Below, in pieces: positions 1,710-57,724 of a stretch of DNA of 64,000 nucleotides. Source of the DNA: an uncultured Bacteroidota bacterium (GTDB taxonomy: Bacteria; CLD3; SB21); NCBI GenBank assembly GCA_964415295.1, contig CAYPYN010000002.1:24485-88484 (forward strand), in the 5' to 3' direction. The translations under genes were made by a program, and so were the position numbers. The notes beneath the pieces are model-generated. The model did not search any database. It was not told the DNA's origin and saw only the letters and a program-made list of their open reading frames with translations. Every line of letters begins with the position of its first letter. Positions within the stretch are counted from its first letter, which is position 1.

Positions 1710-1747
1710 AGGGTTGAATAGCCTCCGCTATTCAACCCTTTTTATTT
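1710..1747 (+). terminator. Rho-independent terminator after rpsA
   Basis: Perfect 13-bp inverted repeat AGGGTTGAATAGC / GCTATTCAACCCT with 4-nt loop, followed by TTTTATTT. Confidence 0.7.
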
Positions 1748-3205: not shown

Positions 3206-4648
3206 CTAATAGGCCTTGGCAAATATGACCTGAACATCGGTTTCTTTTCCAGTAAAGACGCACTTGCCTTTGTCACCGTTCTGGTCCATCGGAACACAGC
3301 GGATCGTCGCTTTGGTTTCTTCCTTGATCCGGGCTTCGTCTTCGCGGCTGCCGGCCCAGAAACATCGGGCAAAACCCGCGTCTTCGTCCATGAGTTTTTT
3401 CAAGTGCGTATAATCCGATGCAAAAAAGGTATTGTCGTCTCGGAATTTCCTGGCACGCTGGAACAGATTGTTCTGAATATCCTCAAGTAAGGCCGGTATC
3501 TTTGAAGCAATTTCATCCGTTTTCATCGTGACCTTATCCGTCTTCTCCGTTTTGTCCCGACGCGCACAAACGACCTGACCGGCCGCCAAATCCTTTGGAC
3601 CGAGTTCCATTCGGATCGGTACACCTTTGATCTCCCACTCGTTGAATTTCCATCCCGGGCGATACTGGTCGCGATCGTCGATCTGAACCCGAACGCCGAG
3701 CCCTTTAAGGGCCGTTTTGATCTTTTGAGCAGCCTCCACCGTTCTGGCCTTTTCTTCATCATCCTTGAAAATCGGTATAATCACGACCTGAGTCGGGGCC
3801 AGTTTCGGCGGCAAAACAAGACCGTTGTCGTCGCTGTGCGCCATAATGAGCGCACCAACCAGCCGTGTAGAAACACCCCAACTGGTTGCCCATACGTATT
3901 GCAGCTGGGTTTTCTCATCCTGGAATTTAACATCAAATGCTTTGGCAAAATTTTGCCCGAGATTATGGGATGTTCCTGCCTGCAACGCTTTCTTATCCTG
4001 CATCATGGCTTCAATACAATACGTATGCAGCGCACCTGCGAACTTCTCCGAATCTGTCTTCTTTCCGTGGATCACCGGCAGGGCCATAAATTCTTCCGCA
4101 AACCGGCGATACACATGGAGCATCTGAACGGCTTCGGCTTCGGCATCTTCGTAAGTAGCGTGCGCAGTGTGTCCCTCCTGCCACAGGAACTCGGTCGTTC
4201 GCAGAAATAATCTCGTACGCATTTCCCACCGTACCACATTGGCCCATTGATTAATCAGGATCGGAAGGTCCCGGTAGGATTGGATCCACTTCTGGTACAT
4301 ACTCCATATAATTGTTTCGGAGGTCGGGCGGATGTACAGATTTTCCTCCAATTCCTTTCCCCCGCCATGCGTTACAACCGCGCATTCCGGCGAGAAACCC
4401 TCCACATGTTCCTTCTCTTTATTCATAAAACTTTCCGGTATGAATAGAGGGAAATAGGCATTCACATGACCCGTCTCTTTGAACATGGCATCGAGGGCCT
4501 GCTGTATATGTTCCCAAATTGCGTAGCCGTTGGGACGAATGATCATACAGCCTTTGACGGGCGCGTAGTCCGCCAATTGTGCCTGCTGAATGATGTCAAT
4601 ATACCATTGGGAATAATCCTGAGAACGTTTTGTGATCTTTTCAGCCAT
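3206..4648 (-). CDS. proS: Proline--tRNA ligase, archaeal/eukaryotic-type
   Basis: 480-aa class II aaRS with ProRS motifs; short form without the bacterial editing insertion and ending in a C-terminal Tyr (...VIFAKAY), as in archaeal-type ProRS. Confidence 0.85.
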
Positions 4649-4677: not shown

Positions 4678-4754
4678 TGGTACGCCCGGCGGGGGTCGAA
4701 CCCACAACCTTTGGCTCCGGAGGCCAACACTCTATCCAATTGAGCTACGGGCGC
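4678..4754 (-). tRNA. tRNA-Arg (anticodon CCG)
   Basis: Minus-strand sequence GCGCCCGTAGCTCAATTGGATAGAGTGTTGGCCTCCGGAGCCAAAGGTTGTGGGTTCGACCCCCGCCGGGCGTACCA: 7-bp acceptor stem, D-loop with GG, anticodon loop CTCCGGA (anticodon CCG), T-loop GGTTCGA, encoded CCA. Confidence 0.85.
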
Positions 4755-8349: not shown

Positions 8350-8370
8350 TCTTGTTTGAGACCAAACAAA

Positions 8371-8406
8371 AAGCCGTTCCGCAATATGCGGAACGGCTTT
8401 TTTGTT
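8371..8406 (+). terminator. Rho-independent terminator
   Basis: 13-bp perfect stem AAGCCGTTCCGCA / TGCGGAACGGCTT, 3-nt loop, followed by TTTTGTT; an A-tract upstream could also let it act on the opposite strand. Confidence 0.75.
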
Positions 8407-31255: not shown

Positions 31256-31262
31256 AAAAAAA

Positions 31263-31294
31263 AGAGCCTGTGAGGAAGGAATCTCACAGGCTCT
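31263..31294. terminator. Bidirectional terminator between convergent genes
   Basis: 12-bp perfect stem AGAGCCTGTGAG / CTCACAGGCTCT flanked by A-run upstream (AAAAAAAAAA) and T-rich run downstream (TCTTGTCTTTT). Confidence 0.7.
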
Positions 31295-31318
31295 TCTTGT
31301 CTTTTCCTAATACGGCCG

Positions 31319-33021: not shown

Positions 33022-33178
33022 GATTCCTCCTCATGGTGTTAGTTCAAAACTAAGAATGGTCATAAGAATTGACTGGATATCGGACGGCAGAATCTACGCC
33101 TCGATGATTCAATTTGTTGCAAAAAAAAAGCATACATCCTCTCGAATGTATGCTTTTGACCCGTTTGGGTTATGAAAA

Positions 33179-42318: not shown

Positions 42319-42391
42319 TCCCTGCGGTGTGTTGTGGTTGGGTGCGCCGTTTAAATGAGGGTTAGACACGCATCCGAATGAATAGAGGCTG

Positions 42392-42424
42392 AAAGCCCCT
42401 AAAACGAACAGTTTTAGGGGCTTT
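42392..42424 (+). terminator. Rho-independent terminator
   Basis: Stem AAAGCCCCTAAAAC / GTTTTAGGGGCTTT with short loop followed by CTCTTT. Confidence 0.7.
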
Positions 42425-42475
42425 CTCTTTAATATTAGGCGGTAGTTGGGACGTTACATACAGAACAATACATGT

Positions 42476-46984: not shown

Positions 46985-48370
46985 TCACTTATGCACCTTC
47001 CTCACGAAATCCTCTACTTCAGGAACACCGCCCTGGAGAACGAGATAACCGTTGTAAGGCTCGCGTTCGGTGATGTCGTAACCGATCGGCGTAAGCATCA
47101 TCTTTTTTACTTCGACGGGATCTTCGGTCTGGCCGAGCACCCAGCCGAGCTTGATATAAGCCGTCTCGGGAAGCATATTGCCCAGCGGCACGACGCCTTT
47201 GGCCATCATGTCGCGCCCGGTGTCATAAACGAACATGTGCACGTAGCCCCAGATCGTCTGCACAACCATGAAGACCGACACGTCCTTGGCTTTGGCCTCT
47301 TCGATGGCAGGATAGAGTTCTTTATTTACATGTCCCAGCCCTGTGCCGACGATGACGATGCCTTTGTAGCCTTTTTCGATCATGGAGAACATCACGTCGG
47401 GTTTCATGCCCGGGTAATAATACAGCATCGTCGCTTTTTCGCTGAAGAACGGATAGATGTCCACATTCTTATCCTTTCGGCGGTGATTGTATTCCTTTTT
47501 GATCGGCGTGATCTTTTTTCTCGTGACCATCGCCACGGGCGTGTCACCGATCGTACGGAAAGTTGATCGATACGACGAATGCATCTTGCGCACGCGCGTG
47601 CCGCGGTGCAGTAAGCCGTATTCATCCGACGTCGGGCCGAACATACACACCATGACTTCCGCGATGTCGGCATTGCCGGCGGTATACATCGCGTGCATGA
47701 GATTCAGCGCCGCATCGGAACTCGGCCGGTCGGACGACCTTTGAGACCCAACCATGATGATGGGCACAGGCGAATTCTGCACCATGTACGTCAGGACGGC
47801 AGCGGTATGCTGGAGCGTGTCCGTGCCGTGGCCGATCACGATGCCGTCGATGCCGTGGCGTATCTCTTTGACAATGGCATGCGCCAGCGCGATGTATTGC
47901 TTCGGGCCCATATTCTCGCTGAATACGGCGAAGATCTTCTCCGTCTCCAGATTGCAGATCTCGGCGAGTTCGGGCACCGCGCCGTAGAGTTCCCCCGGCG
48001 AAAAGGCCGGGATCACGGCGCCCGTTCGGTAGTCGAGCCTCGATGCGATCGTGCCGCCCGTGCCGAATAGTTTCACGTACGGCAGGCCTTTGGTGGTCGG
48101 AAACTGTTTCTCCGGTATCTGGTAATTGGCTTTTTTGTAGCCGGTTTCGCGGATGGCGGTAATGGTCTTCACGTCCACGCCGATATTGTACCCCGACGCG
48201 ATCTTCAGAACGATGTGTTCGTCGTCGGTATTCTCCGCACGCGGGAGTATCGTTCCCTGAAAAAGTCCGCGCGTGGATTCGATATCCACCGACGCCCATA
48301 CGCGGGCCGTGTATTTTTTGAGGACCTCTAAGGCGCGTCCTTTGTAGCCCTGGAATATGTTGTCGCTCAT
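46985..48370 (-). CDS. gatD: Glutamyl-tRNA(Gln) amidotransferase subunit D-like (archaeal-type GatD)
   Basis: 461 aa; GatD-specific N-terminal domain (GYKGRALEVLKKY..., DEHIVLKIASGYNIGV) followed by asparaginase-type domain with GTGGTIAS. Confidence 0.75.
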   Translation of the reverse strand: MSDNIFQGYKGRALEVLKKYTARVWASVDIESTRGLFQGTILPRAENTDDEHIVLKIASGYNIGVDVKTITAIRETGYKKANYQIPEKQFPTTKGLPYVKLFGTGGTIASRLDYRTGAVIPAFSPGELYGAVPELAEICNLETEKIFAVFSENMGPKQYIALAHAIVKEIRHGIDGIVIGHGTDTLQHTAAVLTYMVQNSPVPIIMVGSQRSSDRPSSDAALNLMHAMYTAGNADIAEVMVCMFGPTSDEYGLLHRGTRVRKMHSSYRSTFRTIGDTPVAMVTRKKITPIKKEYNHRRKDKNVDIYPFFSEKATMLYYYPGMKPDVMFSMIEKGYKGIVIVGTGLGHVNKELYPAIEEAKAKDVSVFMVVQTIWGYVHMFVYDTGRDMMAKGVVPLGNMLPETAYIKLGWVLGQTEDPVEVKKMMLTPIGYDITEREPYNGYLVLQGGVPEVEDFVRKVHK

Positions 48371-48930
48371 GGGTAATTCACTTTCTGCATATTTTCAACC
48401 TGCCCGCCGGAAACCTGTTTTCGTATTCTCGGCCTTGATAAAAACGCCGGTGAAACCCGAGTTCGCAGACATGATTTGCGGAAAACGGCTTTCAGTAAAA
48501 GTCAAGTTTAACGTCTCTTCAAGATAGAGAATCGTTTTTAGCAGCCCGATCTGCGAACGAGGGTTAGGCATTTTTATCACAGCCGAAGTTTTCTTTGCCA
48601 CTTTCTTTTCTAAAAAGAAAGTGGATCCAATGACTAATATTTGAAAAACCATCCGGTTTAGAAAACCATTCTTCTTTCTTTTGCTGGCCCAAAGGAAAGA
48701 AGGAAAGAAAAGGGCCTTGGCTGTTGAAAAAACACCTAAAATCTCCGCTTCAGCCCTAAACAAAACAAACTCGCCCGCCGATACGGCGGACTCGGACATG
48801 TTTTGTTTTTAACGGGCTTTCGCTTCGATTTTTTGACGGCGTTTTTTCAAAGGCCCGAAAATTCACGTGATTTTTCTCATCACAATATGGTATCGAATAA
48901 TCTCTTTGCACCACCCTGGCCAGAATGGGG

Positions 48931-50952
48931 TTAAGATATCGACGCTTGAACCTTCCCGCTCAATTCCGTCAGATTCATATTCCCCAGCGCCATGCGGCTC
49001 AATTGGCCCATCACCCAGCGGGAACAGGCGCCGTCCAGACTGGAATTATCGATCTGCGAGAATTTTTTGATCATGAACGGGATCAGTTCCGTGATCTCGT
49101 TCTTGGTCGCGGCTTTGTAACGGATATTGAGCAATACGGAATCAAAATCCAGTTTGGGATGATGGTAATATTCCACCAGCATCATACCCGCAATATTCAG
49201 TTCCATCCCGCGGTCTTTGAGGAACTTGAACAGGTCGTAGATCCGGTCGTAACTGAAATCCTTGGCGGTGGTATAATGATTCTCAACATATTTCATCTGA
49301 TGCCCGAGGAAGATACCGGTGTGGCGGTGCGGGATGCCGAGTTCGTCATGGATCTTCTCCATCAGCCCTACGAGATTCTTTTTGAGAATGAATGTATACG
49401 TGTCTTCCGGAACATTCCACGAGCGGAGCTGTTGTATACGGTCAAAGACGTCCACAGGAATGGCGCGGCGGATCGCTTCGATCTTGTCGTCATCGAGCGG
49501 GATAGGTGCGGAATCGGTATCCGGGTACATGCGGTCTGCGCCGGGAAGAACGCGTTCGAATACCGTCGTACCGTCATGCGATGACTTACGCGTCTCATTG
49601 GGAACGCCTTTGAAGGCCATGCGGCAGCGTTCCTCCACCGTCTCGATCGCCGTGGGAATATCCTCTTTCGGCCCCCACAGAACGATCCATGCATCATCGC
49701 CGCTGCAATTAAGCAATTTAACGATTCTCTCCGACTCCTGTTCGGCAATGTGCGTACGCATATTCTCCGAATGGATCATATTGGGTTTCTCAATACACGC
49801 GATCACTTTGAGCCGCGATGATATCTCATCGGCGAACATCTGACCGGGCTGAGTAAAATGCGATAATATACTCTTGAAGCCCGGCAGTCGAACGGCTACG
49901 ATCTCGTGTTTGGCAACTTTCGCCGCGGCCATCGGTTCGTAACTGAACGTCCAATCGTCCGGTTCAAGTTTGACGGATTCTGTTTTCCACGAATCCGGAT
50001 TGCGGACCTTTTTTTTCAGAAGTTCCACGATGCGCAGGAGCGCGAACTGCCGGAATGCCTCGTTGTGCGTCAATTGGGGCATCCAGCGCGTGTGCGCAAC
50101 GCCTTTGATCTCGACGCGTGTGCCGCCGCGGCAGCTGACATTGACGTCGGCGCGGGTGGAACCGATACCGGTCCGGACTTTTCCAGTACTGCGGTTCAAA
50201 AAACGGATATAATCCGCGCCTTCTTTTACTTCATCGGGATTCACAAAATCCGCATGCGTCACCGTTTCGATCAGCGGCATGCCGAGACGGTCCGTCTTGT
50301 ACACGCGCACATGGCCGATGTCGGAAATTTCCCGGCAGGAATCCTCTTCGATGCTCAACTGGATGAGGTTGACCGTCTTGTGTTTCAGCTGGATCTTCCC
50401 GCCGACGCCGATGATGGCCGTTCTCTGGAATCCGGTCGGAATACTGCCGTCGAGGTACTGCTTGCGGGTGATGTGAACTTCTCCCACGATATTCATCTTA
50501 TTCAAGATCGAGATCTCCAGCGCGATATCGAGCGCTTCCGGATCCATGGCGAAAGGCGGCGTATCGTCCACCTCATACGTACACGCCGTTTTATTTTTGA
50601 TGCGGTAAATAATGTTCTTTCGGGTCTTGAATTCCATCAGCGCCGTACCGTCGTACTCGCCCAGTTCGCTCAGCGTCGGGCGCATGTGGCGAATGACCTC
50701 CGCGTCGTAATCGTCGTGGGCGTTGTATTTTCCGGCCGGACAGCGGCAGAAAAGTTTCCGCCGTGTCAGCAGCTGCTGGTGAACTTCCAGTCCGGACTTG
50801 AATCCGATCCGGTCGTAATCTTCCTGCGTGGCATCTTTCCGGCTGACGTATCCGATGGCTTGTTTGCTTTGTTCGTAATTCTGCTGGGGATCAAAAGGCT
50901 GGTTCATGAGGATTGTGCACCATGTGAAGCATCGATTGATGTTGTCTTGCAA
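48931..50952 (-). CDS. gatE: Glutamyl-tRNA(Gln) amidotransferase subunit E-like (archaeal-type GatE)
   Basis: 673 aa; GatB/E catalytic core with GatE-type signature DYDRIGFKSGLEVHQQL...RKLFCRCP and insertion-sized extra length versus GatB. TTG start at 50952; alternative ATG at 50907. Confidence 0.75.
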   Translation of the reverse strand: MQDNINRCFTWCTILMNQPFDPQQNYEQSKQAIGYVSRKDATQEDYDRIGFKSGLEVHQQLLTRRKLFCRCPAGKYNAHDDYDAEVIRHMRPTLSELGEYDGTALMEFKTRKNIIYRIKNKTACTYEVDDTPPFAMDPEALDIALEISILNKMNIVGEVHITRKQYLDGSIPTGFQRTAIIGVGGKIQLKHKTVNLIQLSIEEDSCREISDIGHVRVYKTDRLGMPLIETVTHADFVNPDEVKEGADYIRFLNRSTGKVRTGIGSTRADVNVSCRGGTRVEIKGVAHTRWMPQLTHNEAFRQFALLRIVELLKKKVRNPDSWKTESVKLEPDDWTFSYEPMAAAKVAKHEIVAVRLPGFKSILSHFTQPGQMFADEISSRLKVIACIEKPNMIHSENMRTHIAEQESERIVKLLNCSGDDAWIVLWGPKEDIPTAIETVEERCRMAFKGVPNETRKSSHDGTTVFERVLPGADRMYPDTDSAPIPLDDDKIEAIRRAIPVDVFDRIQQLRSWNVPEDTYTFILKKNLVGLMEKIHDELGIPHRHTGIFLGHQMKYVENHYTTAKDFSYDRIYDLFKFLKDRGMELNIAGMMLVEYYHHPKLDFDSVLLNIRYKAATKNEITELIPFMIKKFSQIDNSSLDGACSRWVMGQLSRMALGNMNLTELSGKVQASIS

Positions 50953-54697: not shown

Positions 54698-55380
54698 GGT
54701 TTTGTTCCGTAGGTTAATTGATTCTTCTGCACGTAGGCATCAATCGCCGTTCGCCATGTATCCAATGACTTCTGCATCGCACGCACGATCGCCTTGGACG
54801 AGATAGTGGCACCGGTGATCGTCTCTACCTGATTGGGCTGGGTTTTCTTGCCAGTTTTCACGGGTTCGATCTTGGGATCAACGGCCAGCGCGGTGAAATT
54901 GGATACAAAATGTTTATCCTTGTAGATCTTATCCCCTAAACCGGGTGTTTCCTTGCTGTCGAGTACTTCATAACCGATCACCATTTTTCCGACACCGTCA
55001 AAACCGTAGAGAATCCTAAGCATGTCGGCAAATCCCGGTTCGTTGCCGGGGATCGCAAAACCGATCACGGCGCCTTTTTCGTTGTACCCCAGAAAAATGC
55101 GAGGAACGGAACGATCGGACTGATTGACCTGCCTGACAAGCTGCCCGTTCTCGAGTATCATGGCCTCAAACTTGTTGCAACCCGGCAATACGCGGTATAC
55201 CGCTTCCTGCAAAGCTTCCTCTTTATTACGTTCAATGATGGGCAGCGTGAATACGTACGCACAAACCAGAACCAATCCTGAAAAGAATCCGGCTACCGCC
55301 AGCGTCGCGATCATCTGAAAGGAACTGGTTTCCTTCGTGGATAAGACAGGTATCTCTGTATGTATCTTCTGTTCTTCCAT
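54694..55380 (-). CDS. rnfG: Rnf electron-transport complex subunit G (FMN-binding)
   Basis: ATG at 55380 overlapping the rnfD stop by 1 nt; N-terminal TM helix; FMN-binding-domain motif (ITGATISSKAIV). The ORF-track 5' extension to 55536 overlaps rnfD. Confidence 0.75.
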   Translation of the reverse strand: MEEQKIHTEIPVLSTKETSSFQMIATLAVAGFFSGLVLVCAYVFTLPIIERNKEEALQEAVYRVLPGCNKFEAMILENGQLVRQVNQSDRSVPRIFLGYNEKGAVIGFAIPGNEPGFADMLRILYGFDGVGKMVIGYEVLDSKETPGLGDKIYKDKHFVSNFTALAVDPKIEPVKTGKKTQPNQVETITGATISSKAIVRAMQKSLDTWRTAIDAYVQKNQLTYGTKP

Positions 55381-56381
55381 TATTTCGTTCCGTAAACCCG
55401 GTATGGCGTAACCCTGTTGATCAGCGGCGTTACGGCATTCATCAGCAATATGGCATACATCACGCCTTCCGGCAATCCTCCGAAGATGCGGATCAGCACG
55501 ACCAGGAATCCTATACCCGCGCCGAATATCCAGCACCCTTTGATCGTAAAGGGCGAAGTCACCGGATCGGTTGCCATGAACACAGCACCCAACAAAAGTC
55601 CGCCGGAGAATATCATGTGCATCGGCGACGGGTAGATCGCGGGATTGACCAGATGCAGGATGCCCGATAGTAGTGCGGTTGCGGTCAAGATGGAAACCGG
55701 TATGTGCCAGTTGAATATCTTTCTCATAGCCAGATAAATGCCGACAAGGATGATGATCAGTCCGGAAGTTTCGCCGAGTGAACCGGCGGTATTCCCGATC
55801 ATCAGATTAAATAGGTCCGTAGCTTCGTGCTGGAATTTCATCGCTGAAAGCGGCGTGGCTCCCGTGAGGGCGTCCACTTTTTCTCCCTGGAAAAATGGAA
55901 TGGCCAGATTAGCACCGCGCGCCGATAAAAATTGACCGTCCGGAGCCGACCACGTGGTAATGGCTGTGGGAAAAGCCGCTTGCAGAAAGGCCCGGCCGAT
56001 CAGCGCCGGATTGAAAATGTTCTGTCCCAATCCGCCCCAGATCACTTTGCCCAGAACAACGGCGGCAATGCCTCCCAAGAACGCCATCCAGAGCGGAAAT
56101 CCCGGCGGCAGGGTCAGCGCGAATAAAAGCCCCGTGATCAAGGCGCTTCCGTCTTTCAGCGATTTGTAACGCGGTTTATCATTTGAGAAGAACCATTCTG
56201 TCGCAAAGCAGGACGCTACGCCGGTTGCGCACAGCAGGAAAGTGCTCAATCCGAAAAAATAATAAGCTGCGCCGATAACCGGGATGAGGGCGAAAACAAC
56301 CTGGTACATGATCCAAGGCGTGCTCACCTCATCATGCAGAAATGGAGACGTTGAAAGATTCAATTTAGACCGGTCTTCCAT
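55380..56381 (-). CDS. rnfD: Rnf electron-transport complex subunit D
   Basis: ATG at 56381 overlapping the rnfC stop by 1 nt; polytopic membrane protein with RnfD/NqrB pattern (...GATPLSAMKF..., FMATDPVTSP). Confidence 0.85.
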   Translation of the reverse strand: MEDRSKLNLSTSPFLHDEVSTPWIMYQVVFALIPVIGAAYYFFGLSTFLLCATGVASCFATEWFFSNDKPRYKSLKDGSALITGLLFALTLPPGFPLWMAFLGGIAAVVLGKVIWGGLGQNIFNPALIGRAFLQAAFPTAITTWSAPDGQFLSARGANLAIPFFQGEKVDALTGATPLSAMKFQHEATDLFNLMIGNTAGSLGETSGLIIILVGIYLAMRKIFNWHIPVSILTATALLSGILHLVNPAIYPSPMHMIFSGGLLLGAVFMATDPVTSPFTIKGCWIFGAGIGFLVVLIRIFGGLPEGVMYAILLMNAVTPLINRVTPYRVYGTK

Positions 56382-57724
56382 CAGTTCTTTGCCCTTCGTT
56401 CCCGAATAATACTTTTTGCCACGCGAAAACTCTGCACTAACGGAATGCCCGACGGGCAGACGAACGAGCATGACGCGCATTCAAAACAATCCATGATATG
56501 CAGCGGTTCCATATCCTCGTACAATCCTTTTCTCGCCAGAAGTCCCATTACGGAAGGATTGAGATACATCGGACAGACTTCCACGCAGCGCGCACAGCGG
56601 ATGCATTTGTATTCCGTCATATCCTGAACTTCATTATCCGTCAACACCAGAACGCCGGAAATACCTTTGGTCACCGGCACGTCGAGCGACTTCTGGGCAA
56701 TGCCCATCATCGGCCCGCCGAGCAGGATGCGAACGGCTTTGCTGGTCACTCCGCCGCAATAGTCGATCAGATGTTTGATAGGTGTTCCTACGGGAACCAT
56801 CAGATTCGCCGGACGCCGAATGGCCGTTCCCGTCACCGTCACCACGCGTTCGATCAGAGGAACCGACTGCGTGAAATACTGGGCCAGCGCCACCAGAGTT
56901 CCGACGTTGGAAACCAGCGTCTCAATATCAATAGGCAGTTTACCGGATGGAACTTCTTTGTCGAGCACCGCTTTGATCAGCATTTTTTCCGCACCTTGCG
57001 GGTATTTGACTTTCAGACCGATGACTTCATAGGTCACGTTCTGCTTTTTAACTTCTTCTTTCAGAACACGGATCGCATCGGGCTTATTATTCTCAATGCC
57101 TATATAAACTTTTTCCGCCGGTATGAAATGGCGCATGATCGTCAGGCCTTCGACCAGCTCTTTCGCAAATTCGACCATGATGCGGTGGTCGGCGGTCAGG
57201 AAAGGTTCGCATTCGCATCCGTTGGCGATGATGTAATTGCAGCGCTTGCCTTCGGGAATGGAGAATTTCACATGCGCCGGAAAACCCGCGCCGCCGAGGC
57301 CCACGAGTCCGGCCTGCTGAACGCCGTCTACAAATTCCTTGAACGAAAGATCCTGCCACGGACGCGGCTTCGGCATATCCACGGTCTGCGCAGAAAAAGG
57401 ATCGGCCTTGATCTTGATCGCCTGAACAAGCAATCCGTTGGGATGTTCACCGAGCTCGATCGCCGTAATCGTTCCGGTGACGGGAGCGTGCTGCGCCACA
57501 GACACAAAAGAAGCCGGTTTGGCGATCATCTGTCCGCGTTTCACGTGCTGGCCTTTTTGTACGATCGGGATCGAAGGCGCACCGGCGTGCTGGGAAAGCG
57601 GAACCACATACTCATCCACAAAGGGCATACGTTCCACGGCCAAAGTGCCGGTGAATTCTTTATACTCTTCCGGATGAACCCCGTGGTGAAAGGTCAAACG
57701 TTCTGTTGAATGATTATCTGTCAT
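56381..57724 (-). CDS. rnfC: Rnf electron-transport complex subunit C
   Basis: RnfC pattern with NADH-binding region (GLVGLGGAGFPAHVK) and two 4Fe-4S motifs (CIRCARCVEVCP, CFECASCSFVCP). Confidence 0.85.
   Translation of the reverse strand: MTDNHSTERLTFHHGVHPEEYKEFTGTLAVERMPFVDEYVVPLSQHAGAPSIPIVQKGQHVKRGQMIAKPASFVSVAQHAPVTGTITAIELGEHPNGLLVQAIKIKADPFSAQTVDMPKPRPWQDLSFKEFVDGVQQAGLVGLGGAGFPAHVKFSIPEGKRCNYIIANGCECEPFLTADHRIMVEFAKELVEGLTIMRHFIPAEKVYIGIENNKPDAIRVLKEEVKKQNVTYEVIGLKVKYPQGAEKMLIKAVLDKEVPSGKLPIDIETLVSNVGTLVALAQYFTQSVPLIERVVTVTGTAIRRPANLMVPVGTPIKHLIDYCGGVTSKAVRILLGGPMMGIAQKSLDVPVTKGISGVLVLTDNEVQDMTEYKCIRCARCVEVCPMYLNPSVMGLLARKGLYEDMEPLHIMDCFECASCSFVCPSGIPLVQSFRVAKSIIRERRAKN

What the first reader, a model, noticed from the sequence alone, without database searches (positions are those of the whole stretch)
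48371..48930. 560-bp structured non-coding spacer between gatE and gatD
The two functionally linked genes are separated by 560 bp with no convincing ORF (the 134-aa frame at 48395-48799 translates to a low-complexity, unconserved-looking sequence). The spacer has a perfect 12-bp stem with 3-nt loop (CCACTTTCTTTT-CTA-AAAAGAAAGTGG, 48598-48624), a purine/pyrimidine-asymmetric imperfect hairpin (TTCTTCTTTCTTTTGCTGGCCCAAAGGAAAGAAGGAAAGAAAAGGGCC), a near-direct repeat TTGAAAAACCATCC / TTAGAAAACCATTC, and a GC-clamped hairpin CCGCCG-ATA-CGGCGG flanked by AAACAAAACAAA / TTTGTTTTGTTT-like arms (about 48757-48815). This density is unusual for an intergenic region and may encode a small RNA or a regulatory leader for gatD.
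Basis: seen in the sequence. Interest (0 to 1): 0.5.

Follow-up and report, generated by a model that had tools for sequence, protein, structure and literature searches.

The report
Conserved nested-hairpin spacer between gatE and gatD
The 560-bp gap between two co-oriented tRNA-amidotransferase genes of an uncultured Bacteroidales bacterium is non-coding DNA built from two long and two short hairpin units, whose stems have been kept by selection in several related lineages; its function is unknown.

Summary
Window 48371-48930 is a 560-bp gap between gatE and gatD, both on the minus strand. It is the most structured long intergenic region in the window (z about -7; the others +1 to -4).

Two paralogous long hairpins, U1 (48429-48586) and U2 (48719-48855), lie in inverted orientation around two paralogous short hairpins, so about 427 bp have dyad symmetry.

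In 76 related genomes the gatE-gatD gap is typically about 20 bp. The same element was found in three other lineages with DNA in hand, and in four more seen only as spurious ORF translations.

Synonymous sites between these lineages are near saturation (46-55% identical). Stem columns are 86-94% identical, and linkers 18-53%. The 134-aa ORF is not a gene. No Rfam family matches.

No other copy was found in the window or in about 1.9 Mb of other loci, but one lineage carries an extra unit.

Best reading: a lineage-restricted composite palindromic element of the MITE/BIME kind, fixed inside the operon and kept by selection. It probably acts as an RNA hairpin array within the gatE-gatD transcript. 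Transcription, strand and function are inferred, not shown.

The parts
48371..48930 (-). Whole gatE-gatD spacer (560 bp), non-coding
   Evidence: In 76 relatives the gap is about 20 bp at the median, range -8 to 598.
48429..48855 (.). Composite element of about 427 bp with dyad symmetry: U2, short hairpin Ha, linker, short hairpin Hb, U1
   Evidence: Inverted repeats I2, I3 and I4. U2 aligns better to the reverse complement of U1 in 14 of 16 comparisons. Homologous in L084, L207 and L208.
48429..48586 (-). U1, a long hairpin unit of 158 nt and the best-conserved part
   Evidence: Covariance model R1 scores 136.7 bits. Arms are 85-98% identical across lineages. As RNA -60.7 kcal/mol; as ssDNA z = -5.9.
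48431..48448 (+). Outer arm motif of U1, GGCCTTGATAAAAACGCC
48567..48584 (-). Inner arm motif of U1, GGCTGTGATAAAAATGCC
   Evidence: invariant in all four lineages.
48598..48624 (.). Hb, the perfect 12-bp hairpin (CCACTTTCTTTT / AAAAGAAAGTGG)
   Evidence: I9. L084 has CCGC...GCGG, a compensated A-U to G-C change. The motif recurs as Ha.
48625..48670 (.).
   Evidence: 35-53% identity between lineages, with length variation.
48671..48702 (.). Ha, the pyrimidine/purine hairpin, paralogous to Hb and slightly degenerate in the window
   Evidence: I11. The motif CTTTCTTTT...AAAAGAAAG occurs twice in each of L084, L207 and L208.
48589..48596 (-). 3' half (AAAGAAAA) of a predicted invariant helix that encloses Ha and Hb
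   Evidence: RNAalifold columns 378-385 pair with columns 246-253; invariant, so neither supported nor refuted by covariation.
48704..48711 (-). 5' half (TTTTCTTT) of that predicted helix
48719..48855 (-). U2, a long hairpin unit of 137 nt, inverted paralogue of U1. In the window its interior has been replaced
   Evidence: R1 scores 88.3 bits. Alignment A3. The interior is only 35-39% identical to the other three lineages, but still a hairpin.
48773..48791 (-). GC-clamped tip of U2 followed by a T-rich run; terminator-like, and present only in the window
   Evidence: Absent from L084, L207 and L208.
48856..48930 (-). Variable 5' flank, from the gatE stop codon to U2
   Evidence: 18-28% identity to the other lineages.
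48371..48428 (-). 3' flank, from U1 to the gatD ATG; predicted unpaired and moderately conserved
   Evidence: 63-81% identity. Unpaired in the folds.
48395..48799 (-). 134-aa ORF, judged spurious

Best explanation
The spacer is a non-coding composite palindromic element restricted to a small clade of uncultured Bacteroidales. It sits in the normally tight gatE-gatD junction.

It consists of two paralogous long hairpin units of about 140-160 nt (U1, U2) in inverted orientation. These flank two paralogous short pyrimidine/purine hairpins (Ha, Hb). In origin it looks like a MITE-like or BIME-like palindromic repeat that was duplicated in place.

It has since been inherited with the locus, and its stems have been kept by purifying selection.

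The most likely mode of action is this. The element lies between two co-oriented genes that are adjacent or overlapping in most relatives, so it is probably transcribed as part of the gatE-gatD mRNA. There it would fold into an array of long, stable stem-loops. Such an array could uncouple the two cistrons in three ways: as a substrate for a double-strand-specific RNase, as a 3'-end protector for the gatE part, and by forcing gatD to initiate translation on its own from the unpaired 58-nt flank.

Shown here: existence, architecture, paralogy, non-coding nature, and conservation above the neutral level.
Inferred: co-transcription, action at the RNA level, and the effect on expression.
For: Insertion into a normally tight junction: 76 related loci have a median gap of about 20 bp. 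The two other gaps over 500 bp each hold a real gene.

Homologous spacers occur in L084, L207 and L208, from independent JGI, ENA and Logan assemblies.

Selection:
- Four-fold degenerate sites in gatD/gatE are 46-55% identical between these lineages.
- The intergenic region upstream of gatE has 52% mean column identity.
- By contrast, U1 arms are 85-98% identical, paired columns 0.86 against unpaired 0.55, and linkers 0.18-0.53.
- Conservation alternates on a 20-40-nt scale. One recent transfer of the whole element would not produce that.

Structure:
- z = -5 to -10.5.
- 12 of 138 consensus pairs carry compensated changes.
- Between the paralogues, 93.6% of cells are paired, with 29 double-change cells against 12.8 +/- 2.5 in shuffles (0 of 500 shuffles reach this); slid controls score 0.09 or less.

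Non-coding.

Not a dispersed high-copy repeat in the data held: covariance model R1 finds only U1 and U2 in 64 kb with filters off. In about 1.9 Mb of other loci it finds only the orthologous pairs.

The 3' flank before the gatD ATG is predicted unpaired.

Known analogues are co-transcribed and alter mRNA fate: Correia elements bind RNase III and are cleaved or protected by it (PMC2649163, abstract); ERIC and BIME elements affect mRNA stability (PMC3184786).
Against: - There are no expression data, so transcription through the spacer is only inferred from gene order.
- Both strands fold equally well and carry similar numbers of wobble pairs. This gives no sign of selection on the sense RNA in particular, and fits a DNA-level palindrome equally well.
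- The stems are conserved in sequence, not only in pairing. That is more than an RNase III site would need.
- L209 is nested within the carrier clade on the GatE tree but has a different 124-bp spacer. The element is therefore dispensable or replaceable.
- GatD and GatE form a 1:1 complex (my own knowledge), so a need for uncoupled expression is not obvious.
- One lineage (P0140) carries an extra unit, and Logan contigs break at the borders of U1. Both hint at repeat behaviour.
Confidence: 0.4

Rival explanations
1. A selfish or passive DNA palindromic repeat (MITE or foldback element, or a cluster of them) with no host function. The arms would be conserved because they are recognition sites for a transposase or a REP-associated tyrosine transposase (RAYT) encoded elsewhere, or because multiple genomic copies homogenise one another.
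For: - TIR-like 18-20-nt arms occur four times, and the units are of Correia/ERIC size (PMC3184786, table 1).
- The units are paralogous, and the unit number varies between lineages (P0140).
- Assemblies break at unit borders, and two homologues sit on contigs of only 685 and 764 bp.
- The folding is strand-symmetric.
- Other lineages carry unrelated palindromes at the same junction.
Against: - No second site was found in the 64-kb window with filters off, in about 1.9 Mb of other loci, in viral contigs, or in plasmid and phage records.
- No target-site duplication is visible.
- The same locus is occupied in four lineages whose linkers have diverged to the neutral level. An immobile orthologous copy should then decay as a whole, yet the stems along their full length are conserved, not just the terminal arms.
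Confidence: 0.25
2. A DNA-level functional site, such as cruciform-prone palindromes or four protein-binding sites. These could be bound by a nucleoid protein or gyrase, as at BIMEs, or could act as a recombination or insulator site.
For: - Strand symmetry.
- Conservation at the sequence level of both arms, and four arm motifs in alternating orientation.
- Signs of a recombination mosaic around the junction.
- BIMEs bind IHF, DNA polymerase I and gyrase (PMC3184786).
Against: - Conservation follows base-paired columns along stems of about 60 bp. It is not confined to discrete 18-bp sites.
- Compensated changes keep complementarity. Protein sites alone would not need that.
- No candidate binding protein is known.
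Confidence: 0.13
3. One or more independently transcribed small RNAs, sense or antisense, or a gatD-specific regulatory leader of the riboswitch or T-box type.
For: - Strong, conserved structure directly upstream of gatD.
- Repeated complementary CUUUCUUUU / AAAAGAAAG segments could form alternative helices.
Against: - No Rfam family, T-box included, matches in four lineages, even at E up to 1-10.
- The architecture is long, near-perfect hairpins rather than multi-helix junctions with conserved loops.
- The unpaired regions are the variable ones.
- gatD in the lineage where it is unlinked has no such leader.
- No conserved terminator: the terminator-like tip is present only in the window.
Confidence: 0.1
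4. The 134-aa ORF (48395-48799, minus strand), or another small ORF in the spacer, encodes a protein.
For: - Gene callers called it: P0001 in the NCBI record, and a partial call in Logan contig L081.
- An exhaustive phmmer search finds four similar ORFs.
Against: - No Pfam family.
- The codon score of 0.087 lies inside the spurious-ORF distribution; real genes are about 0.26.
- The frame is interrupted in L084 and L207.
- The four similar ORFs keep the nucleotides but switch frame. Examples are NPRSQIG against KPSFADG, and SANSGFTG against FCELRFHRH.
- Conservation follows the stems, not codon positions.
Confidence: 0.02
5. An assembly artefact or chimera.
For: Palindromes can cause misassembly, and a Logan contig ends near the 12-bp hairpin.
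Against: - A 100% identical independent Logan contig covers 48593-45143.
- The same architecture is present in JGI, ENA and Logan assemblies from other samples.
Confidence: 0.01

Closest known systems
Correia repeat-enclosed elements (CREE/NEMIS) of Neisseria
   Same: Intergenic units of about 100-160 bp with terminal inverted repeats. When co-transcribed with neighbouring genes they fold into a long hairpin. They are known to bind RNase III and be cleaved or protected by it (PMC2649163; PMC3184786).
   Different: Correia elements occur in hundreds of dispersed copies with a TA target duplication. Here only one locus is known, no duplication is seen, there is no sequence similarity, and the units occur as an inverted pair with two extra short hairpins.
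ERIC (IRU) elements of Enterobacteriaceae
   Same: Imperfect palindromes of about 127 bp in transcribed intergenic regions, including within operons. Their RNA hairpins change the stability of the upstream mRNA (PMC3184786).
   Different: ERIC elements are multi-copy and conserved across a whole family of bacteria. There is no sequence relation, and the present element is a composite of four hairpins at a single locus.
BIMEs (mosaic clusters of REP units) of E. coli
   Same: A mosaic of palindromic units in alternating orientation, separated by linkers, lying between genes of an operon. They are linked to mRNA stabilisation and to binding of IHF, gyrase and DNA polymerase I (PMC3184786).
   Different: REP units are 20-40 bp, GC-rich, carry GTAG or CGTC heads (PMC3733652) and occur in hundreds of copies. 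The units here are four times longer, AT-rich in the arms, lack those heads, and are not known to be dispersed.
RNase III-processed intercistronic hairpins (phage T7 early mRNA, rpsO-pnp) - from my own knowledge
   Same: Long double-stranded RNA stems between cistrons that separate their fates.
   Different: Those are single hairpins and are experimentally proven. Here there is no evidence of cleavage, and the element has a repeat-like origin.

Membership tests
MITE (miniature inverted-repeat transposable element) | Terminal inverted repeats and small size, with no transposase gene | tested here: met
   18-20-nt arms at the ends of each unit and of the whole 427-bp element. No conserved ORF.
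MITE | Multiple dispersed copies in the genome | tested here: inconclusive
   No other copy in the 64-kb window or in about 1.9 Mb of other loci. Only 64 kb of the source genome was available. The metagenome scan was swamped by chance hits. Unit number varies in P0140.
MITE | Target-site duplication flanking the repeats | tested here: not met
   Read directly from the flanks in the window, L084 and L207. No shared direct repeat.
REP / BIME | GC-rich palindromic units of 20-40 bp with a GTAG or CGTC head, in high copy number | tested here: not met
   The units are 137-160 nt, the arms are AT-rich, there is no such head, and the arm motif is absent elsewhere in the window.
Any Rfam 15 RNA family (including T-box, riboswitches, large ncRNAs) | Covariance-model score at or above the gathering threshold | tested here: not met
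   Nothing in the spacer at gathering thresholds. At E up to 10, only plant miRNA-precursor models appear, at 25-35 bits against thresholds of about 140.
Intrinsic terminator | GC-rich hairpin followed by a T run, conserved at the site | tested here: not met
   A pattern match at 48791-48773 in the window only. The other three lineages have a different U2 tip.
Integron attC site | Paired R'' (RYYYAAC) and R' (GTTRRRY) core sites at the ends of the palindrome, with an integron context | tested here: not met
   GCCTAAC occurs inside the 5' arm of U1, but the partner reads GTTTCAC and is internal (sequence). The neighbouring genes are conserved in order across relatives, so this is not a cassette array; no integrase was searched for.
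Structured functional RNA (generic) | Conservation above neutral, concentrated in paired positions, with compensated changes | tested here: met
   The same pattern would also fit a DNA hairpin.
Structured functional RNA (generic) | Strand-specific signal (G-U tolerated, A-C avoided) and evidence of a transcript | tested here: inconclusive
   The two strands have equal energies and similar G-U counts. No expression data were available.
Protein-coding gene | Reading frame preserved among orthologues, with homologues or a known family | tested here: not met

The most novel reading that the evidence does not exclude
The element is a previously undescribed structured intercistronic RNA of about 430 nt, specific to the bacterial GatDE operon of a Bacteroidales clade. 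It would be kept by selection because it sets the relative output of the two subunits, or senses a translation-related signal. That would make it an example of a palindromic repeat turned into a dedicated regulatory RNA domain.
Probability: 0.12. Interest if true: 0.6.

Novelty: new variant of a known kind. Interest (0 to 1): 0.4.

Why it matters
If the stems are really kept by selection, this is a clean natural case of a palindromic insertion that became a maintained part of an operon for an essential translation enzyme. Most relatives keep the two genes adjacent or overlapping, so the contrast is sharp.

It gives a compact test system. There are four sequenced variants, a close relative without the element, and one lineage with an extra unit. 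Together these allow a test of whether long intercistronic hairpins in Bacteroidota act on RNA (processing, stability, uncoupled translation) or on DNA.

Bacteroidota are a useful group for this question because, from my own knowledge, their promoters, ribosome-binding sites and terminators are atypical.

Practically, the work also shows that several database 'hypothetical proteins' (P0001, P0137-P0140) are miscalls over a non-coding element.

Tried and rejected
- **Rfam scans** at gathering thresholds and at permissive E-values, on the window and on three orthologues: nothing.
- **tRNA/tmRNA scan:** only tRNA-Arg at 4678-4754.
- **blastn and tblastx of the spacer** against the window and 80 related loci: no other copy and no decayed gene.
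- **Plasmid and phage collections,** distant mode: no match.
None was homologous by blastn or by the covariance model.
- **Viral contig scans** with three patterns: nothing real.
- **Six-frame pseudo-protein search** of the 5.8-billion protein set, meant to catch miscalled ORFs on dispersed copies: no hits, and it failed its own positive control by not recovering P0001. Uninformative.
- **Bacteroidetes -7 promoter motif TAnnTTTG:** absent from the spacer in the window and L084, with one non-conserved sense-strand match in L207. It is also absent upstream of 24 of 27 genes in the window, so this says nothing.
- **Strand assignment** from G-U versus A-C counts and from energies: no bias.
- **Weak model hit on the L017 spacer palindrome** (35 bits): the match is in pairing, with little shared sequence, so it was treated as a generic hairpin.
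- **attC, T-box, DnaA-box and IHF-site resemblances:** inspected by eye and dropped.
- **The 844-bp 'gap' at 55537-56380:** an artefact of my ORF picking. It is a 366-aa gene.

Full report
**Context**

Both flanking genes lie on the minus strand. gatE runs from 50907 (ATG) or 50952 (TTG) down to 48931, and gatD from 48370 down to 46985. NCBIfam places them in the archaeal-type GatE and GatD equivalogs, above the curated cut-offs. The closest genomes are uncultured Bacteroidales and Lentimicrobiaceae-like bins. The window comes from an NCBI contig of 589,998 bp.

Yes.

The region folds much better than dinucleotide shuffles on both strands (z = -5.0 and -6.9). My own scan covered eleven candidate regions of 200 bp or more. 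The spacer gave z = -6.9 and -7.5. The ten others ranged from +1.1 to -4.1, and one of those ten later proved to be a gene.

Perfect stems of 12 bp or more are expected 0.15 times in 64 kb. Six are seen. The other five sit in short gaps beside gene ends and look like terminators.

The small hairpins are parts of a larger plan. An 18-nt motif, GGCYKT(T)GAWAAAAAYRCC, occurs four times in alternating orientation, at 48431 (+), 48567 (-), 48719 (+) and 48838 (-). It occurs nowhere else in the window.

These motifs are the ends of two long hairpins, U1 (48429-48586) and U2 (48719-48855). Between them lie the 12-bp hairpin (Hb) and the pyrimidine/purine hairpin (Ha). Ha and Hb share the stem CTTTCTTTT / AAAAGAAAG.

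U1 and U2 can be aligned over their full length. U2 aligns better to the reverse complement of U1 than to U1 itself in 14 of 16 comparisons. The two outer arms read GGCCTT... and the two inner arms GGCTGT.... About 427 bp therefore have dyad symmetry: a palindrome built of palindromes.

**Comparison with relatives**

In 76 related species genomes the gatE-gatD gap ranges from -8 to 598 bp, with a median near 20. The two other gaps over 500 bp each hold a real gene: a 200-aa ORF in L014 and a 173-aa membrane ORF in L039. Several mid-sized gaps hold unrelated palindromes.

The closest GatD relative that could be traced, L084 (94.8% identity), has a 561-bp gap homologous to the window's. Two more carriers, L207 and L208, were found through GatE relatives. 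All four come from different samples and assemblers. A Logan contig reproduces window 48593-45143 exactly. The spacer is therefore not an assembly artefact.

**Conservation**

Between these lineages, four-fold degenerate sites in gatD and gatE are only 46-55% identical. The intergenic region upstream of gatE has 52% mean column identity.

Within the spacer, identity alternates over short distances:

| Part of the spacer | Pairwise identity |
|---|---|
| U1 5' arm | 0.94-0.97 |
| U1 3' arm | 0.85-0.98 |
| 12-bp hairpin Hb (comparisons without L084, which MAFFT misaligned by one base) | 0.93 |
| Ha (R/Y hairpin) | 0.76-1.00 |
| Linker and 5' flank | 0.18-0.66 (0.66 only for L207-L208) |
| All paired columns, four lineages | 0.86 |
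| All unpaired columns, four lineages | 0.55 |
| Paired columns, the three closer lineages | 0.94 |
| Unpaired columns, the three closer lineages | 0.66 |

A recent transfer of the whole element would not leave neutral-level linkers between near-identical stems. I therefore read this pattern as purifying selection on the stems.

Compensated changes exist:
- CCAC...GTGG against CCGC...GCGG in Hb.
- 12 of 138 consensus pairs among the orthologues.
- 11 of 39 pairs between the paralogues. There, 93.6% of cells are paired, and 29 double-change cells compare with 12.8 +/- 2.5 in shuffles. Slid controls are far lower.

One caution applies to the paralogue figures. The U1/U2 differences stem from essentially one ancient split, so the cells are not independent events.

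**Not a protein**

- The 134-aa ORF has no Pfam hit.
- Its codon score of 0.087 lies inside the range for spurious ORFs; real genes score about 0.26.
- In the word-indexed search of 5.8 billion protein clusters it finds only itself.
- Its frame is broken in L084 and L207.
- The exhaustive phmmer search found four more singleton ORFs, P0137-P0140. Comparing them with the window ORF shows local frame switches over conserved nucleotides, for example NPRSQIG against KPSFADG and SANSGFTG against FCELRFHRH. These are miscalls over the same element in four further lineages.
- P0140 reads through U2, Ha, Hb and U1, and then through a second flank plus U2. The number of units therefore varies between lineages.

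**Distribution**

A covariance model built from U1 and U2 (R1) finds only these two units in the window with filters off. In 89 related loci it finds only the pairs in L084, L207 and L208. It finds nothing in 120 unrelated metagenome loci or in three viral loci.

In the lineage where gatE and gatD are unlinked (L211, L085), neither gene has the element. L209 groups with L084 on the GatE tree but has a 124-bp spacer with different palindromes. L210 has the same kind of palindromes in the 111 bp before its contig ends. Identities at the 5' end of gatD suggest recombination around the junction.

The element is therefore restricted, replaceable, and so far known from a single locus. Only 64 kb of the source genome could be searched, and the one metagenome scan was lost to chance hits.

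**RNA or DNA?**

I could not decide this. The sense and antisense strands fold with equal energy and have similar wobble counts, both sequence by sequence and in the consensus folds. No Rfam family matches. The promoter-motif test was uninformative.

Three things favour an RNA role: gene order and orientation, the tight coupling of the two genes in relatives, and an unpaired, moderately conserved 58-nt flank before the gatD start. Known analogues point the same way. Correia elements bind RNase III and are cleaved or protected by it (PMC2649163). ERIC and BIME elements alter mRNA stability (PMC3184786).

Three things keep DNA-level or selfish readings alive: the strand symmetry, the sequence-level conservation of both arms, and the variable unit number together with contig breaks at U1 borders.

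**Verdict**

This is a real, non-coding, unusually structured and selectively maintained composite palindromic element, so far seen only at this locus. It is not in Rfam. It works most like the intercistronic palindromic repeats (Correia, ERIC, BIME), but it fails their membership tests on copy number, target duplication and unit type.

Its most likely action is as a co-transcribed RNA hairpin array that uncouples gatE and gatD (confidence about 0.4). Interest is moderate: the element is narrow in distribution and repeat-like in origin, but it offers a clear case of selection on long hairpins inside an essential operon.

Noticed in passing
window 46985-50952; loci L001-L080: Archaeal-type GatD/GatE genes occur in at least 590 matched stretches from Bacteroidales and Lentimicrobiaceae-like species genomes, nearly always as gatE then gatD with -8 to +60 nt between them. 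Only two papers in the text library mention GatDE and Bacteroidetes together.
   Followed up: partly
L017 5805-5950; L056, L079 and L027 spacers; L209 2976-3099; L210 4273-4383: Other lineages carry unrelated palindromes at the same gatE-gatD junction. These include a 146-nt palindrome in L017, four CTTCGTG repeats followed by four CACGAAG in L056, and two inverted CCCCC...TTT...GGGGG units in L209 and L210. The junction seems to collect palindromic insertions repeatedly.
   Followed up: partly
L014 5399-6001; L039 747-1268: In two relatives the long gatE-gatD gap is filled by a real extra gene whose ends overlap the neighbours: 200 aa in L014, and a 173-aa likely membrane protein in L039.
   Followed up: partly
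L211 4001-5983 and L085 3501-4886 (L211 is from GCA_008933615.1; L085 is from an ENA contig and was assigned to the same lineage only by inference): In this lineage gatE and gatD appear to be unlinked. gatE is followed by a PGI gene, and gatD is preceded by a divergently oriented M48 peptidase gene.
   Followed up: partly
window 1710-1739, 8368-8402, 31262-31295, 33126-33157, 42391-42425: Five further perfect hairpins of 12-16 bp lie in short gaps beside gene ends and look like terminators. About 0.15 would be expected by chance in the whole window.
   Followed up: partly
window 50907-50952: The TTG start at 50952 for gatE is probably wrong. Homologues align from residue 16 or so, which fits the ATG at 50907. 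About 35 nt just upstream (..TCGATGCTTCACATG..GCACA..) are conserved in the close relatives L084, L207 and L209, while the rest of that intergenic region is not.
   Followed up: partly
window 48490-48530 (U1 apex) and homologous parts of L084, L207, L208: The apical part of U1 comes in two versions: one shared by the window and L208, the other by L084 and L207. This disagrees with U2 and the 5' flank, where L207 and L208 are closest, and with the GatE tree. It suggests recombination within the spacer.
   Followed up: partly
L081 (= window 48593-45143); L208 end at 3334: Two Logan contigs end within a few bases of the borders of U1. The cause could be repeat copies or co-occurring strain variants in those samples.
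   Followed up: no
proteins P0001, P0137-P0140: Five database 'hypothetical proteins' are miscalled ORFs over this non-coding element. P0140, on a 764-bp contig, shows an extra U2-type unit after U1.
   Followed up: partly
window 55380-56480: A 366-aa membrane-protein ORF (RnfD-like by eye) overlaps both neighbouring ORF calls. My greedy ORF picker first reported the region as an 844-bp gap.
   Followed up: partly
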